From: the human T2T-CHM13v2.0 reference genome, Homo sapiens
Reading direction: 5' to 3' (one strand)
DNA: 64,000 bases
NCBI RefSeq assembly: GCF_009914755.1
Contig: NC_060930.1
Shown: in pieces, positions 46,946 to 53,200 of the stretch
How the letters are laid out: every line of letters starts with the position of its first letter
How positions within the stretch are numbered: the first letter of the stretch is position 1
The notes under the pieces: generated by a model
Told to the model about the DNA's origin: nothing
The model's database searches: none
Seen by the model: the letters and a program-made list of their open reading frames with translations, nothing else
Program-made: the position numbers and the translations under genes

Positions 46946-47094
46946 ATTTTATATCATAAACTACTATTAGTAGCAAGATATTACTCATAAACTGATCACA
47001 GCTGCTATTGCCCAAGTTGTGGCAATGCCAGTCAGGTCCAAGGCCTCACCAGTGAGCCCACCATGCCAATGTTACCCCAAGCTGCAAGTTGAAA

Positions 47095-48028
47095 GAGAAG
47101 TCACTTCTAACACTTCTGATACCAAATGTGTGGGTTTTGGTTTTCACACCAAGCAATTCTCCAGTTATTTGTGGACACTCACTGGTGTCCTACAGTTTAA
47201 CTCAATGTTCACACTAACCACTCAGAGGTAGCGTAGACCCCACAAGTTAAAGGCTCAGCCCCACAAGTCTGCCCCCTACTTCAGACACCAGTTACAAGTA
47301 GTAGGTCCCCAGGTCACCCACAGCTCCTGTCCAACTTGGCTGCAAGTTGGAGCCTCTCATGACCTCCCCCTCAAGTGGAATCATTTGCTATAACGGCTAA
47401 CAGAACTCAGGGGGACACTTTGCTTGCTATTACTGGTTTAAGATAAGGGATACAGGTGAACAGCCAGATGCAGAGGTACACAACGCGAGGTCCAGAAGAG
47501 TCCCAAGCACAGGAGCTTCTGTCTCCATGGAGTTTGGATGCACCACGCTCCTTGCACATGGATCCATCCATCAACCCAGAAACCTTCCTGGGTTTAGTGG
47601 TTTTATGGAGGGGTTTAGGGGTTTTATGGAGGTTCATAACCTCATTGTTTAGGGGTTTTATGGAGGTTCCATTATGTAGACGTGATTAGTTAAATCATTG
47701 GCTATGGACGATCAGCTCAATCTCCAGCCTCCTCTCCTCCCTGGAGGCCAGGGATGTGGAGGAAGGGAGGGATGCTGAAAGTTCCAATCTTCTAATCATG
47801 GCTTGGTCTTTCTGGTGACCATCTTCCATCCTCAAGCTATCTAGGGACACCCAGCCACCAGTCTTCTCATTAGTGTAAACTCGGATGCATTTGAAAGGGG
47901 CTTATTGTGAATAACAAAACATGTTCCTTTCACCCCAACGCTCATCAGCTTATGAGTGTTTTAGAAGTTCTGTGCCAGGAACCCCAGCACTAAGACCAAA
48001 TATGTATGTCTTATTCTATCATATCACA
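47095..48028 (-). mobile_element. MER21-type ERV LTR
   Basis: Reverse complement starts TGTGATAT...aataagacatacatatttggtc...ggttcctggcacaga; contains a triplicated gtttaggggttttatggagg unit. Confidence 0.82.
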
Positions 48029-48059
48029 CAAATCCTTTTCCCTCCACAGTTTATCTGCT

Positions 48060-48237
48060 CTAGTGGTACTTGAAGTCCCTGGACCAGTAGCATCAGTGTC
48101 TCCTAGAAACTACTGAGAAATGCAACTTCTAGGACCTCACCCCAGACCTAATAAATCAGACACTCTGGAGGTAGGGCACCACAATCTGTTTTAATATCTA
48201 GGGGAAGCTGATGCATGCTCAAATTTGAAAACCAGTG
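48060..48237. mobile_element. MER5A
   Basis: ggaccagtagcatcag...ccccagacctaataaatcagacactctgg...tttgaaaaccagtg. Confidence 0.75.
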
Positions 48238-50088
48238 ACCCAGTTGGTATATTTGTGGATCTTCCTTGCTGTCCTCTTCATCCTTCTGACCAACTATTCT
48301 AAATCAGTGATTCTACTTGATTGCATGTTAGAATCCCTTTGAGAACCCTTATAACATGCCTATGCCCCTCCCCTGAAGCTCTGGGAGTTGGACTCGGTTA
48401 TGAAAATACGTGTGCAAGAGCTCACCGGGTGATTCTATTGTACAACTGATGCTGAGAAATTTTGTTTCGAATAATCCCCGGGAGATCCCTTGATACGTAA
48501 TATTTTCCTTTGGCCAATCTCAGTTTCTGAAATCTAACTATCCACGAACACATTCTGCAGATTATCCAGTGCCTCCCTCGTCCCATACTGTTGACTGACC
48601 TCTAAGTCCCCTTTTGCAGTGCTTTGGGGTGAATATTACAGCTCAATTCCTTCCACCTTATTTGCTTAATCTAAGATTGGTATATCCTGGTAAGTAGAGC
48701 TTTTATATACAAATATCTTGGCTGATTTCATGAAGCCCACATCCCATCAGATTTCCCTCTGCATTCTCTATGAAGCCTCTTCTATTCCCTCTTAATGCGT
48801 ACATCTTCCCAAAAGTCCCACTGAGCCATCTTCCTCCATTTGCCATCACACTGCACGGTTTCATATCTTTTATTTATTCGAATGCTTGTCTTTCCTTTCT
48901 AGACTATAAACCATTAGAGTGAAGGTAGATATCTTTCCTAGATCCAAGTTTTCACCATACCTAGAACACTGTGAATACTGTGCCTTCCAAAGGTTTGTGG
49001 AATAGAAGATAAATATCTAGTGTTAACTGTCCCCACAATCTTCATCAAATTGCTAGCCTTCAGACACTGTGCCTTAATTTCTGCCCTCCTCTTTTTGAGT
49101 TGTCTTTAACCAGTATGTTTCCCTAGCCCATTCCCTTGGCCCAGAGAATCAGCTTCAAATTTGGTCCCATCTTCTTTTCCAAGAACTCTTTGCAGCCTCA
49201 AAACACCATGGTTGAGTTAGAATGAGTACCCTTGAGAAGAGACTAATTCTGTAGATACATTCAGCAGTCATACTCTTCCGTAAAATATTTAATGTGCACA
49301 TACTGTTTTCAATCAACAAGCAGATAATTAAGGCTTTAACTCTAGGTTTTTAAAATAAAAACATCATAGAATTACTGTATTTTCTCTCCCCTTCCCCAAA
49401 AGAGTCCATTATGCATATCTCCACTGCTATGATCTATACTCATCAATCAGATTGTTAGATCTTGGAACTTAGGAGAATATTTCTGTTTATTTTGACATGT
49501 AGAAATTCTGTTTAACCTGACCTGAAGAATTTCTCAAATTTATCCTATTTTGTTTAACTGATCATTTGCCTCTCAAAATATTATTTCTTTCAAGTATGCC
49601 ATTGGTCAGATAGAGGGCTGTCTTTCTAGCTGCTGGGGTAGGACTAGAATCAGTTCTTTTTTTCTCTGAGTAACATAGTCTTTGCACAGCCTAGTAACCC
49701 ATGGATAAAACAGACAAGCCTTAAGGTCACCTCTGGCCAGACCTCTCAGTGGTGCCTACAGGTTCCCAGTGAAATAGGCTCTACCTTGAACAGCCAGGGG
49801 AAGCACTGGTGGGCCTCAGCAAATAGAAAGGTGTCAGGACAAGCCTCTCTGAGACAGCTAGATATGGTCCCAACCCACAGTGAAGGTAACCAGGTATTCA
49901 GAAACTGGACTGACCAGGCACAAAGAAAAACAAAAACAAAAACAAACAAACACAAATAACTTTTCCAAATAAGCAGCTAAGAGTCAATCCCTTTCTTTCA
50001 TTTCAAGTCTAGCATTTGTCTAAACTCAAAGTGCTCTGCTAAATCGTGTCAACTAGCTTTGTAACTAAGACCTGCAGGCTTTAATTAC

Positions 50089-50243
50089 CTTAAGGAGAAA
50101 GTCTGGTGTCCAAAGAAAGCCTCATTACAAACTGGGTTTTGCTTGGGGGTGGGAGAAGGCCCAGGAATGAGGCTGTCTTGGGGATCCCCTGCCAAATCAA
50201 ATATATCTTCATCCTTCATGGTGATGAGACTGGTGATCCACAT
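50089..50243 (-). CDS. OFCC1: Candidate upstream OFCC1 coding exon: (MWITSLIT)MKDEDIFDLAGDPQDSLIPGPSPTPKQNPVCNEAFFGHQTFSL(R)
   Basis: Donor TTAAG|gtaatt at 50089/50088. ATGs at 50243 and 50219 (ACCATGA). It ends in phase 2, and AG plus the first A of the 12028 exon gives Arg, in frame with MERE. Unique, non-repeat sequence. Confidence 0.6.
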
Positions 50244-53200
50244 AATTAATATAAGCTCACACAGAAGTAAACATGAAACGATTAAACAGGAAGCCTTTAA
50301 CCAGGCAGCATGAAGCAGGGAGGTGGGGGAGGAATTAATGGATAACAGAGTCTTAGAAACACAGGCAAGTAGTACATGGTATTTTTAAATGAACCTTTGT
50401 TCCTGGACTAAAACCAAATGGCTTTTAAAACTTTTCTCTCCACAACAGCCTCGACAAGGTGGTTTGGAGCAGGTATTATGCCCAGAATATTTACATTCTG
50501 GCAGTTATAGCATAGCCATATGCTATAACTATATTTGATAAATGATATAGCAAATTCAAAAAGAAATAGTAAGAAAAATAGTAGTTGAATAATTTGTACT
50601 CCTTAAAGACTAAATTTGGAGGAACAGCAGATAGCTTGTGAGCCTACTATGATTGGCATTAAAACAGTAACTCTGTCGTGGTGGGCAGAGGGGGTGAGGG
50701 TAGGGGTCTTTATGTGTTGAATAGGGACCGGGCACCATGTGAACTGCTGGGAATATGTAATCTCATTTAACACTAAATACATCTTATTTGAACTCTCTGA
50801 TATCATGCAATTTTTTTTTCTTGCAGAACACCCAGGGTTAATACATGGGCACTACTAAGCAAGTGAAGTTCAAGATATGCACGTCCCATTTCCAATAGAT
50901 AAACTGCATGGAGAGGAGAAAACATAGTAACTGCAGAATCTCTTGATTAAAGCCTCCTTTTTAAAATTAGGCTTGCTTGCTTTTTTAATGTTTCAATTAG
51001 GGAATTAAGCTAAAAGGAAAAACTAAAATCTGCCCTGCAGTTTTCTGCATCAGGAAAATAAGTTGTGATAGGATGTCACTTTTGATCCTTTCTCAGATGA
51101 TCTGAGTTATAAGTCACCCAGGGACCACAGTTTGGGTTTCATTAGCAGTAAGTCTAGAACATCTAAGTTCAGGACCTCCCTATAGAGCTTGACTGTGGGC
51201 TGTGGGCAAACACCTAGGGGCTACCATCACCAGCATGAGAGCCAGCTCAGAAGTCTTTTCCTGCCCCAGAAAAGAAGAATCACACCTTTGGCAGAGGCCT
51301 GAAGGCAGGATGAGTAATACCGTATTTATAGGAACCCCAAAAGAAACACCCCAAACCCTTCGGCTGTCGCCTGTCTCATTCTCTGCTGAAACGCCTATTG
51401 CATCATTTTTTTTTTAAGTCAAGCAAGACCCAGCATGTGGAGAGGAGGCAGTTGGCAATTTTGCTACTGTTCTAAAACACAGCCTTTGATGAAGCCATCG
51501 AATGGTATCCCCACTTGTACAGGTAAGGAAACACGAATTAGAGGAGGTTGACTTCCTTGTCTATTACCACACGAAGTAAGTAGGAGAATCATTTGAACTC
51601 AGGCAGTTTATTGTCAGGTATATGTTCTCTGCTCTTCCTTGTCTTGTCATGAGGGTAGTACCTGTTGTACATGGTTGGATATTAACCAGTGTAAACTGCC
51701 CTCCACCACCAGGAATACAGAAACATACCACAGCCAGTGGAAAATGAGAAAGATGAAAAAAGAGGGACTAGAGATTCCTAGCTAACATTGTAAACATTGT
51801 AACAGTGGAAACACTGCATCTGGAGGGATACAGAACTTGTACTTCATTTCTTCCTGAAATTTCAATCCTTTCCAGCTAATCTGGGTTTTTTAATTAAATA
51901 TTAATAAAGAGGTATACTGGAGCCAGGTGAACCAAATTGATGTTTTCCTTCAAGATTCTAATGCACTTGCTTCAAATACTGGTGATGAACCCTTAAGTGG
52001 GGCCTGAACAGAGCCTGAACCCTTTGGGCTTACTGATGATGGGAGGCCTGATGTCCCTTACTTTCCAAGACTAATACAGATAAAAGAAACAGCCTAAGGG
52101 GAAATCCTACCAACACAACTCCTATTTTTTTAAATTTTGCTTTCATGAAGACTTCCAGCTCAGGATGATGGATCTGTTTTCCATAGAGAATTGCTTGTGT
52201 TTTCACATTCTCATTATATGGAAAGGGTGCAAGAAAGGAACAGAAAATAACCACAATAAAATTAGAAGAGCAAAGTATAAATTTTGAAAACTTGATGGAA
52301 TATTTCTGGATGGCTTGCATTTTGAAAGCTCATTATTTCAGCTCCAAAATTAAATAAATATGGTTTTATTTGGACTAAATATAATTTTACAACCATAAAA
52401 ACAGTTTTAGAACCATTTCAAAGGCTTGACAAGTTTGACCAAACTTCTTAAAACCATTCTGTCACCCAAAGGGCAGTGCAAAAGAATAGAGGAACAAAGT
52501 GTGCATAAAATGTTTCATTAAATAAGGGCAATTGGCAAAACCTTTAATCCACCACCTCACAGCGCTAGGCACACCCTCCAAACACAGATGATAAATAGGA
52601 ACAACATGGTGAAGCTTTGGTCATGCGACACATCTGTTCACTTATTTGGGTCATGTTTTAGATTTGGGCATAACAAGTTTTGATTGTCTTTATGTACGGT
52701 GACAGCAATGTAATGAATGTTGTTTGAACTCTGAATTATATAAATACATAGACATGTTGATTTGAGAAGAGAAAACAAAGCATGTGAAAATTGGTAAAAT
52801 ACCCACTTCAAGAATTACAGATATTCTTCTTTAAAAAAAAAAAAAGAAAAGAAAGAAAGAAAGAAAAGACTAGCACGCAACTGGCAGACCACCCGTGAAG
52901 TGCGATTAAAATCTGAACATGAACAAAAGAGAATGTTCTCCAGTCAGTACAATTCCTAAAAGTATTAACTTTTAAAAGTTCTTCACTTAATCCAATGACC
53001 TTAAAATATGTCATTGAAATGCAGTATCCTTTTGTGTAATCAGTGGAAGTCCTCTCACGTATATGAAATTAATTGAGATAATTAGAAAAGGCCAATAATA
53101 ACGATAGTTGCTAGTATTTATGGGGCACTTTCTAGGAGTGAAACGGAAGTATTATACATGTTATCTCATGTAATCCTATCATCAAGCCTTTAAAATAAAT

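What the first reader, a model, noticed from the sequence alone, without database searches (positions are those of the whole stretch)
50089..50243. Distal exon that extends OFCC1 in frame by 60-68 N-terminal residues
Seen: on the minus strand, ACC-ATG at 50219 opens 43 codons (MKDEDIFDLAGDPQDSLIPGPSPTPKQNPVCNEAFFGHQTFSL) plus AG, ending at a strong donor AAG|gtaatt. The OFCC1 ATG exon begins with one spare A followed by 16 stop-free codons before MERE. Joined, they read ...FSL-R-ETGLKSVHCQGQEAEN-MEREKFQQ, 60 aa longer than the MERE-initiated protein (68 aa from the ATG at 50243). The ORF track misses it. Inference: the true N-terminus of OFCC1/Opo may lie in this exon, 38 kb upstream. The phase match alone has a 1-in-3 chance, so splice evidence is needed.
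Basis: partly seen in the sequence, partly recalled or inferred. Interest (0 to 1): 0.8.

Follow-up and report, generated by a model that had tools for sequence, protein, structure and literature searches.

The report
Known alternative first exon of OFCC1
The upstream exon that lengthens human OFCC1 by 60-68 residues is real, but it is already catalogued as UniProt isoform 2, and the added residues are absent from the conserved protein family, so the finding is ordinary.

Summary
On the minus strand, ATGs at 50243 and 50219 open a frame that runs to a GT donor after 50089. The phase fits the OFCC1 ATG exon (12028-11968), whose 16 codons before MERE carry no stop.

The predicted join is not new. 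It maps colinearly to seven pieces of chr6 with nothing between the two exons.

The idea that this is the true N-terminus of OFCC1/Opo is not supported:
- Pfam's OFCC1 model starts at residue 73 of isoform 2.
- Of 84 homologue representatives, 9 start exactly at the MERE position, including one of 1023 aa.
- Apart from the isoform itself, only a 54-aa stand-alone ORF resembles the extension.
- Its 61% identity is what neutral drift at about 80% DNA identity gives.

By sequence alone such ORF-plus-donor combinations occur by chance, in 2 of 51 comparable donors on this strand.

Verdict: a known, probably lineage-restricted alternative 5' exon of a locus that RefSeq now calls a transcribed pseudogene. 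Low interest.

The parts
50089..50243 (-). Coding part of the distal alternative 5' exon. It runs from the ATG at 50243 (residue 1 of isoform 2) to the last exon base 50089: 51 codons plus two spare bases, AG.
   Evidence: 100% match to residues 1-51 of P0003. Single place in the genome.
50219..50221 (-). Second in-frame ATG (context caccATGa). It is the one kept in the only related ORF found (P0074).
50083..50088 (-). Donor intron bases gtaatt after TTAAG. If the exon is left unspliced, the frame ends two codons on (AGG TAA).
50385..50387 (-). First in-frame stop (TAA) upstream of the exon's ORF. It caps any further N-terminal extension within this exon.
11968..12028 (-). OFCC1 ATG exon (RefSeq exon). 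One spare A completes the R codon, then 16 open codons, then the conserved start MERE (context gagaacATGg).
   Evidence: P0003 residues 48-73 map here.
5926..5992 (-). Next coding exon ([22 protein letters not shown]), where the Pfam OFCC1 model begins.
5454..5630 (-). Following coding exon, which holds the NPAF motif region.
50049..50149 (.). Stretch spanning the exon's 3' end, the donor and the start of the intron. It is 75% identical to a place on chromosome 4 and is probably an old repeated or conserved non-coding element.

Best explanation
Window 50243-50089 (minus strand) is an alternative 5' exon of human OFCC1, and it is already catalogued.

How it works: when a transcript carries this exon and splices its donor (after 50089) straight to the ATG exon (12028), the two spare bases AG plus the spare A make an Arg codon. 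The two ATGs of the distal exon then lie in frame with the conserved start MERE. A ribosome starting at the first or second ATG makes a protein 68 or 60 residues longer, which is UniProt's isoform 2 of 276 aa.

The added residues are not part of the conserved OFCC1/Opo family. The family's N-terminus is the MERE-type start four residues before KFQQ. The extension is therefore best read as a lineage-restricted by-product of an alternative leader exon that happens to be open and in phase, in a locus that RefSeq now treats as a transcribed pseudogene.

Shown: the sequence, the phase, identity to the catalogued isoform, and absence of the extension from the family model and from the orthologue representatives.
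Inferred: that the isoform rests on a cDNA, that the exon is a first exon, and that the extension has no conserved protein function.
For: (1): the only hit to the 51-aa peptide among proteins of 91-2000 aa (1 of 5 candidates) is P0003, which UniRef names Isoform 2 of human OFCC1.

(2): P0003 maps in order to seven places on the minus strand of chr6. Residues 1-52 fall at window 50091-50243 and residues 48-73 at the ATG exon, with no piece between them.

(3): Pfam PF15680 (OFCC1) covers residues 73-180 of P0003 only. The 51-aa peptide alone hits no family.

(4): of 84 representatives with E up to 0.001, 9 align query residue 69 to their own residue 1 (P0006, P0011, P0012, P0015, P0017, P0019, P0025 of 1023 aa, P0029, P0032). 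Only P0003 and the 54-aa P0074 reach into residues 1-51.

(5): BLASTP of the peptide against all 84 gives P0003 and P0074, with the next best E = 2.0. Among the 46 that carry the K[FL]QQKA motif, 8 start with an M[ED][RK]E start codon four residues before it, and 5 more start with MDTF six to seven residues before it. The start position is thus kept across divergent members.

(6): the human-P0074 pattern (30 identities, 34 positives, BLOSUM sum 153 over 49 residues) falls inside what random mutation of the human exon gives at 76-84% DNA identity. Positives reach the observed value in 61-88% of runs, and the frame stays stop-free in 43-60%.

(7) The MERE ATG has A at -3 and G at +4.

(8) PMC3248446 (section 13 read): the N-terminal region is conserved among human, mouse, turkey and medaka, and mouse exon 1 is non-coding.

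(9) The hub table lists RefSeq's single OFCC1 transcript as a transcribed pseudogene without this exon. PMC7555810 (passages) lists OFCC1 among human pseudogenes.
Against: - I could not see the evidence behind UniProt's isoform 2. The primary paper (Davies 2004) is not held, and no RNA-seq, CAGE or Ribo-seq data were available.
- P0074 shows that the frame is open, ungapped over 49 residues, and keeps the second ATG in at least one other organism. That leaves some room for constraint.
- The representative library collapses proteins at 50% identity, so orthologue isoforms that carry the extension could hide behind representatives that lack it. The word-index searches need shared 5-residue words and are weak evidence of absence.
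- Several homologue models (P0004, P0005, P0009, P0018, P0034) read in frame through the 5' part of the ATG exon. An upstream-extended reading is therefore not unique to human.
- No other vertebrate genome was available to me, so no dN/dS or PhyloCSF test was made.
Confidence: 0.75

Rival explanations
1. The exon is a genuine, selected coding exon. Under this reading a mammal-wide alternative N-terminus of OFCC1/Opo is translated from the conserved second ATG (MKDE...) and adds a functional, probably disordered, 60-residue segment ahead of the NPAF-bearing N-terminal region.
For: - P0074 (54 aa) is 61% identical without a gap over 49 residues. It keeps the second ATG and ends one codon after the exon end, as the unspliced human frame does.
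- The second ATG has a good context.
- The 16 codons before MERE are open in human and are read in frame in five other representatives.
Against: - The substitution pattern fits neutral drift.
- The extension is outside the Pfam model.
- None of the 83 other representatives longer than 54 aa carries it, and no longer protein was found with a human+P0074 profile (1 hit of 23 candidates, the human isoform itself).
- P0074 was found only because it is open, so there is ascertainment bias.
- The best-kept part of the peptide overlaps a stretch that also matches non-coding DNA on chr4, where the same frame carries a stop and a 1-nt gap.
Confidence: 0.1
2. The exon is of no biological consequence. 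Under this reading it is a chance ORF next to a chance donor, and the catalogued isoform stems from a rare or aberrant transcript of a decaying locus.
For: - Such ORF-plus-donor combinations occur by chance: 2 of 51 comparable donors on the minus strand and 1 of 44 on the plus strand.
- There is no CpG island (CpG observed/expected 0.16, GC 0.39 over 49900-50900).
- RefSeq's only transcript omits the exon and calls the gene a transcribed pseudogene (hub table).
Against: A curated isoform with exactly this junction exists in a 90%-identity cluster of 9 member sequences. The donor is as strong as two of the three annotated OFCC1 donors in the window.
Confidence: 0.15

Closest known systems
UniProt/UniRef 'Isoform 2 of Orofacial cleft 1 candidate gene 1 protein' (Homo sapiens), 276 aa (P0003)
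   Same: Identical. Residues 1-51 are the translation of window 50243-50091, residue 52 is the junction Arg, residues 53-68 are the open 5' part of the ATG exon, and MERE starts at residue 69.
   Different: Nothing differs. The finding is this isoform's first coding exon.
Canonical OFCC1/Opo (ojoplano) proteins starting at MERE/MDRE/MEKE; Pfam PF15680
   Same: They share the ATG exon and all downstream N-terminal exons.
   Different: The canonical start lies four residues before KFQQ and is kept in 8 of 46 motif-bearing representatives as residue 1. The distal exon's 68 residues are absent from them and from the Pfam model.
Mouse Mrds1/Ofcc1 and Opo transcripts with alternative first exons (PMC3248446)
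   Same: Alternative 5' exons are spliced onto the shared ATG exon. Exons 2-8 are shared between Ofcc1 variants and Opo while exon 1 differs (section 13 read).
   Different: The mouse exon 1 is described as non-coding. The human distal exon happens to carry in-frame ATGs.

Membership tests
Human OFCC1 isoform 2 (UniProt/UniRef record) | The N-terminal sequence equals the translation of the distal exon joined to the ATG exon. | tested here: met
   100% identity over 51 of 51 residues. P0003 residues 49-76 read as the predicted junction.
Human OFCC1 isoform 2 (UniProt/UniRef record) | Colinear with the OFCC1 locus, with no intervening coding exon. | tested here: met
   Seven ordered matches on the chr6 minus strand cover residues 1-276.
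Human OFCC1 isoform 2 (UniProt/UniRef record) | Supported by a transcript (cDNA, junction reads). | not testable with these tools
   No transcript data are available here, and Davies 2004 is not held. That Swiss-Prot isoforms rest on deposited cDNAs is general knowledge and was not checked here.
Conserved OFCC1/Opo family region (Pfam PF15680) | The segment is covered by the family model. | tested here: not met
   The model matches residues 73-180 of P0003. The 51-aa peptide alone matches no Pfam family at E up to 1.
Conserved OFCC1/Opo family region (Pfam PF15680) | The segment is present in orthologous proteins. | tested here: not met
   Of the 83 representatives other than P0003, only one (P0074, a 54-aa stand-alone ORF) resembles it, and the next best has E = 2.0. 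The profile search for longer proteins found only the human isoform. Caveat: clustering at 50% identity and the word index limit sensitivity.
Protein-coding exon under purifying selection | The amino-acid substitution pattern is more conservative than neutral drift. | tested here: not met
   The observed 34 positives and BLOSUM sum of 153 lie within the neutral simulations. This is one pair only, without the other DNA.
Protein-coding exon under purifying selection | The frame and splice sites are kept across species (PhyloCSF, dN/dS). | not testable with these tools

The most novel reading that the evidence does not exclude
The distal exon is a conserved mammalian alternative first coding exon. 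Initiation at the conserved second ATG (MKDE...) would give an N-terminally extended OFCC1/Opo isoform with its own promoter and a distinct role. The current pseudogene label would then hide a real protein product.
Probability: 0.08. Interest if true: 0.35.

Novelty: already known. Interest (0 to 1): 0.1.

Why it matters
It matters little.

The useful result is negative. The extension should not be taken as the ancestral N-terminus of OFCC1/Opo when variants are interpreted or constructs are designed, because the conserved start is MERE.

If the extension did prove to be translated and conserved, it would bear on variants reported in the OFCC1 5' region (a 5'-UTR variant is mentioned in PMC4746269; passages seen).

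Tried and rejected
- Three primary papers (Davies 2004, Martinez-Morales 2009, Mertes 2009) are not held. A search for Q8IZS5, 'OFCC1 isoform', 'OFCC1 transcript' and MRDS1 listed 12 papers. Judged from the listing and from the papers I had read, none describes this exon.
- A word-index search for proteins of 28-90 aa similar to the peptide found no candidate.
- Rfam finds nothing in 47000-53000 at gathering thresholds.
- I looked for a usable acceptor between the in-frame stop (50387) and 50244 that would make the exon internal and let the frame run further upstream. No YAG site with at least 70% pyrimidines exists there. The nearest are at 50609 and 50672, above the stop. The AAG at 50296-50294 has a disfavoured A at -3.
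- I suspected that the 4 stops in the match at chr6:9566315-9566560 marked a broken human Opo exon. On inspection the exon proper (55 aa, 91% identical to P0005) is open, and the stops lie in flanking intron. I therefore did not find where, or whether, the human long ORF is broken.
- I considered a coding paralogue on chr4. It is rejected because the chr4 copy has a stop and a 1-nt gap in the corresponding frame, and its similarity runs on into the intron.

Full report
**Observation**

Reading the minus strand shows ATG at 50243 and ACC-ATG at 50219 in one frame. The frame runs to TTAAG|gtaatt, with the last exon base at 50089. Translation gives MWITSLIT-MKDEDIFDLAGDPQDSLIPGPSPTPKQNPVCNEAFFGHQTFSL, followed by two spare bases.

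The annotated OFCC1 ATG exon 12028-11968 is 61 nt: one spare A, 16 open codons, then MERE and gtaaga. The next exon continues KFQQ.

The stop-to-stop frame is 99 codons. Its upstream stop is TAA at 50387-50385, and no in-frame ATG lies above 50243.

**Is it more than chance?**

Not on sequence alone. I used a rough donor matrix whose frequencies I recalled from memory. The donor scores 7.95 bits, like two of the three annotated OFCC1 donors in the window (7.7, 7.7 and 10.3).

On the minus strand, 2 of 51 donors at least as strong also follow an ATG-started frame of 43 codons or more in the required phase. On the plus strand it is 1 of 44. The 16 open codons before MERE are also unremarkable.

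**What it is**

I searched the 51-aa peptide against longer proteins of the 5.8-billion-protein collection. Of 5 candidates it returned one hit: a 276-aa protein that UniRef names [quoted passage not shown]. The match is 100% identical over the whole query, in a 90%-identity cluster of 9 member sequences.

Searched back against the genome, the protein maps in order to seven places on the chr6 minus strand. The first two are the distal exon and the ATG exon, with nothing between them. The peptide occurs once in the genome. The exon is therefore the first coding exon of an isoform that is already catalogued.

RefSeq's single current transcript (hub table) does not use the exon and labels the gene a transcribed pseudogene. 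PMC7555810 (passages seen) also lists OFCC1 among human pseudogenes with coding counterparts in rat and rabbit.

**Is it the true N-terminus of OFCC1/Opo?**

The evidence says no.

- Family model. Pfam's OFCC1 model covers residues 73-180 of isoform 2, and the extension matches no family.
- Homologue survey. A full HMMER search of isoform 2 against 1.84 billion representatives gave 84 proteins at E up to 0.001.
  - 9 of them align their first residue to the MERE position. One of these is 1023 aa long.
  - Only the isoform itself and a 54-aa protein (P0074, query residues 3-52, E 4.5e-9) touch the distal-exon peptide.
- Direct comparison. BLASTP of the peptide against all 84 confirms this, with the next best E at 2.0.
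- Start position. Among the 46 representatives with the K[FL]QQKA motif:
  - 8 start with M-[ED]-[RK]-E four residues before it.
  - 5 more divergent ones start with MDTF six to seven residues before it.
  - 14 read ...SLQ before it. This is the human intron sequence just before exon 5992 (att tcc ctc cag), so these are models that read through the acceptor.
- Other extensions. The remaining N-terminal extensions (P0007-P0010, P0013, P0014, P0026, P0027, P0030, P0040) resemble neither one another nor the human extension.
- Profile search. A profile of the human peptide plus P0074, searched against longer proteins, again found only the human isoform (1 hit of 23 candidates).
- Mouse. In PMC3248446 (section 13 read) exon 1 is non-coding, and the N-terminal region is reported as conserved from human to medaka.

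**P0074**

P0074 is 61% identical to the human peptide without a gap over 49 residues. It keeps the second ATG but not the first. It ends one codon past the exon end, as the unspliced human frame does (...FSLR then stop). It therefore looks like a plain ORF call on orthologous DNA of another organism. Its library gives no names.

I mutated the human exon at random and kept the stop-free outcomes with 29-31 identities. Positives reached the observed value (34) in 61-88% of runs. The BLOSUM sum reached the observed value (153) in 18-57% of runs. The implied DNA identity was 76-84%, and 43-60% of all runs stayed stop-free.

P0074 therefore gives no sign of selection on the protein. It could also only be found because it is open. 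The absence of indels is the one mild point in favour of constraint.

**Surroundings**

- The region 49700-50900 is single-copy except for 100 nt (window about 50049-50149) that are 75% identical to chr4:114012111-114012210.
- That similarity spans the exon's 3' end, the donor and the first intron bases. The chr4 copy has a stop and a 1-nt gap in the corresponding frame. This points to an old non-coding repeated or conserved element rather than a coding paralogue.
- There is no CpG island: observed/expected 0.16 and GC 0.39 over 49900-50900.
- No Rfam family matches in 47000-53000.
- No good acceptor lies between the upstream stop and 50244, so the exon behaves as a first exon, or at least as the first coding exon.
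- Three out-of-frame ATGs (50377, 50311, 50274) lie upstream and would matter if the transcript starts higher.

**Mechanism**

This is an alternative leader exon that happens to be open and in phase.

- Shown: the phase match, the in-frame ATGs, and identity with the catalogued isoform.
- Inferred: that the isoform rests on a cDNA (general knowledge of how Swiss-Prot isoforms are made; the primary paper is not held), that the exon has its own CpG-poor promoter, and that the extension has no conserved function.

The MERE ATG has the stronger context (A at -3, G at +4). Even on this transcript some ribosomes may therefore scan through to it.

**Limits**

- No transcript, CAGE or Ribo-seq data and no other vertebrate genome were available.
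- The representative library merges proteins at 50% identity, so orthologue isoforms with the extension could be hidden.
- The word-index searches are weak evidence of absence.
- Supplements were not consulted.

**Verdict**

The join is real but already known. The "true N-terminus" reading is not supported. Interest is low.

Noticed in passing
window 50049-50149; L003:1501-1600 (chr4:114012111-114012210): A 100-nt stretch across the exon end, the donor and the start of the intron is 75% identical to a single place on chromosome 4 (E 1e-6). The chr4 copy is not open in the same frame. It is probably an old repeat or a conserved non-coding element and is unnamed here, because no repeat library is available.
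   Followed up: partly
window 11980-12027 (5' part of the ATG exon): The 16 codons before MERE are open in human. The equivalent stretch is read in frame in five other representatives (P0004, P0005, P0009, P0018, P0034). P0034 joins a different short upstream exon (MSSCPS-K) in the same phase. This could be conservation of a 5' UTR plus a longest-ORF annotation habit, or a hint that upstream-extended isoforms recur.
   Followed up: partly
G000 chr6:9467430-9566560 (window about -328,570 to -229,440), outside the window: Exons matching the C-terminal part of long (about 1000 aa) Opo orthologues lie beyond the low end of RefSeq's OFCC1 span (-222,312). The one inspected (9566340-9566504) is open and 91% identical to P0005. 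I did not find where the human long reading frame is broken, if it is.
   Followed up: partly
P0008, P0010, P0013, P0020-P0022, P0027, P0030, P0031, P0035-P0037, P0040, P0073: 14 of the 46 motif-bearing OFCC1 representatives carry ...SLQ immediately before KFQQ/KLQQ. This matches the intron bases before the acceptor of exon 5992 in human. These public gene models appear to read through that acceptor and miss the small ATG exon.
   Followed up: partly
window 50125 and 50212 (minus strand): Out-of-frame ATGs inside the distal exon open short frames. One ends at the TAA at 50092-50090, just before the donor. They could act as small upstream ORFs on transcripts that carry this exon.
   Followed up: no
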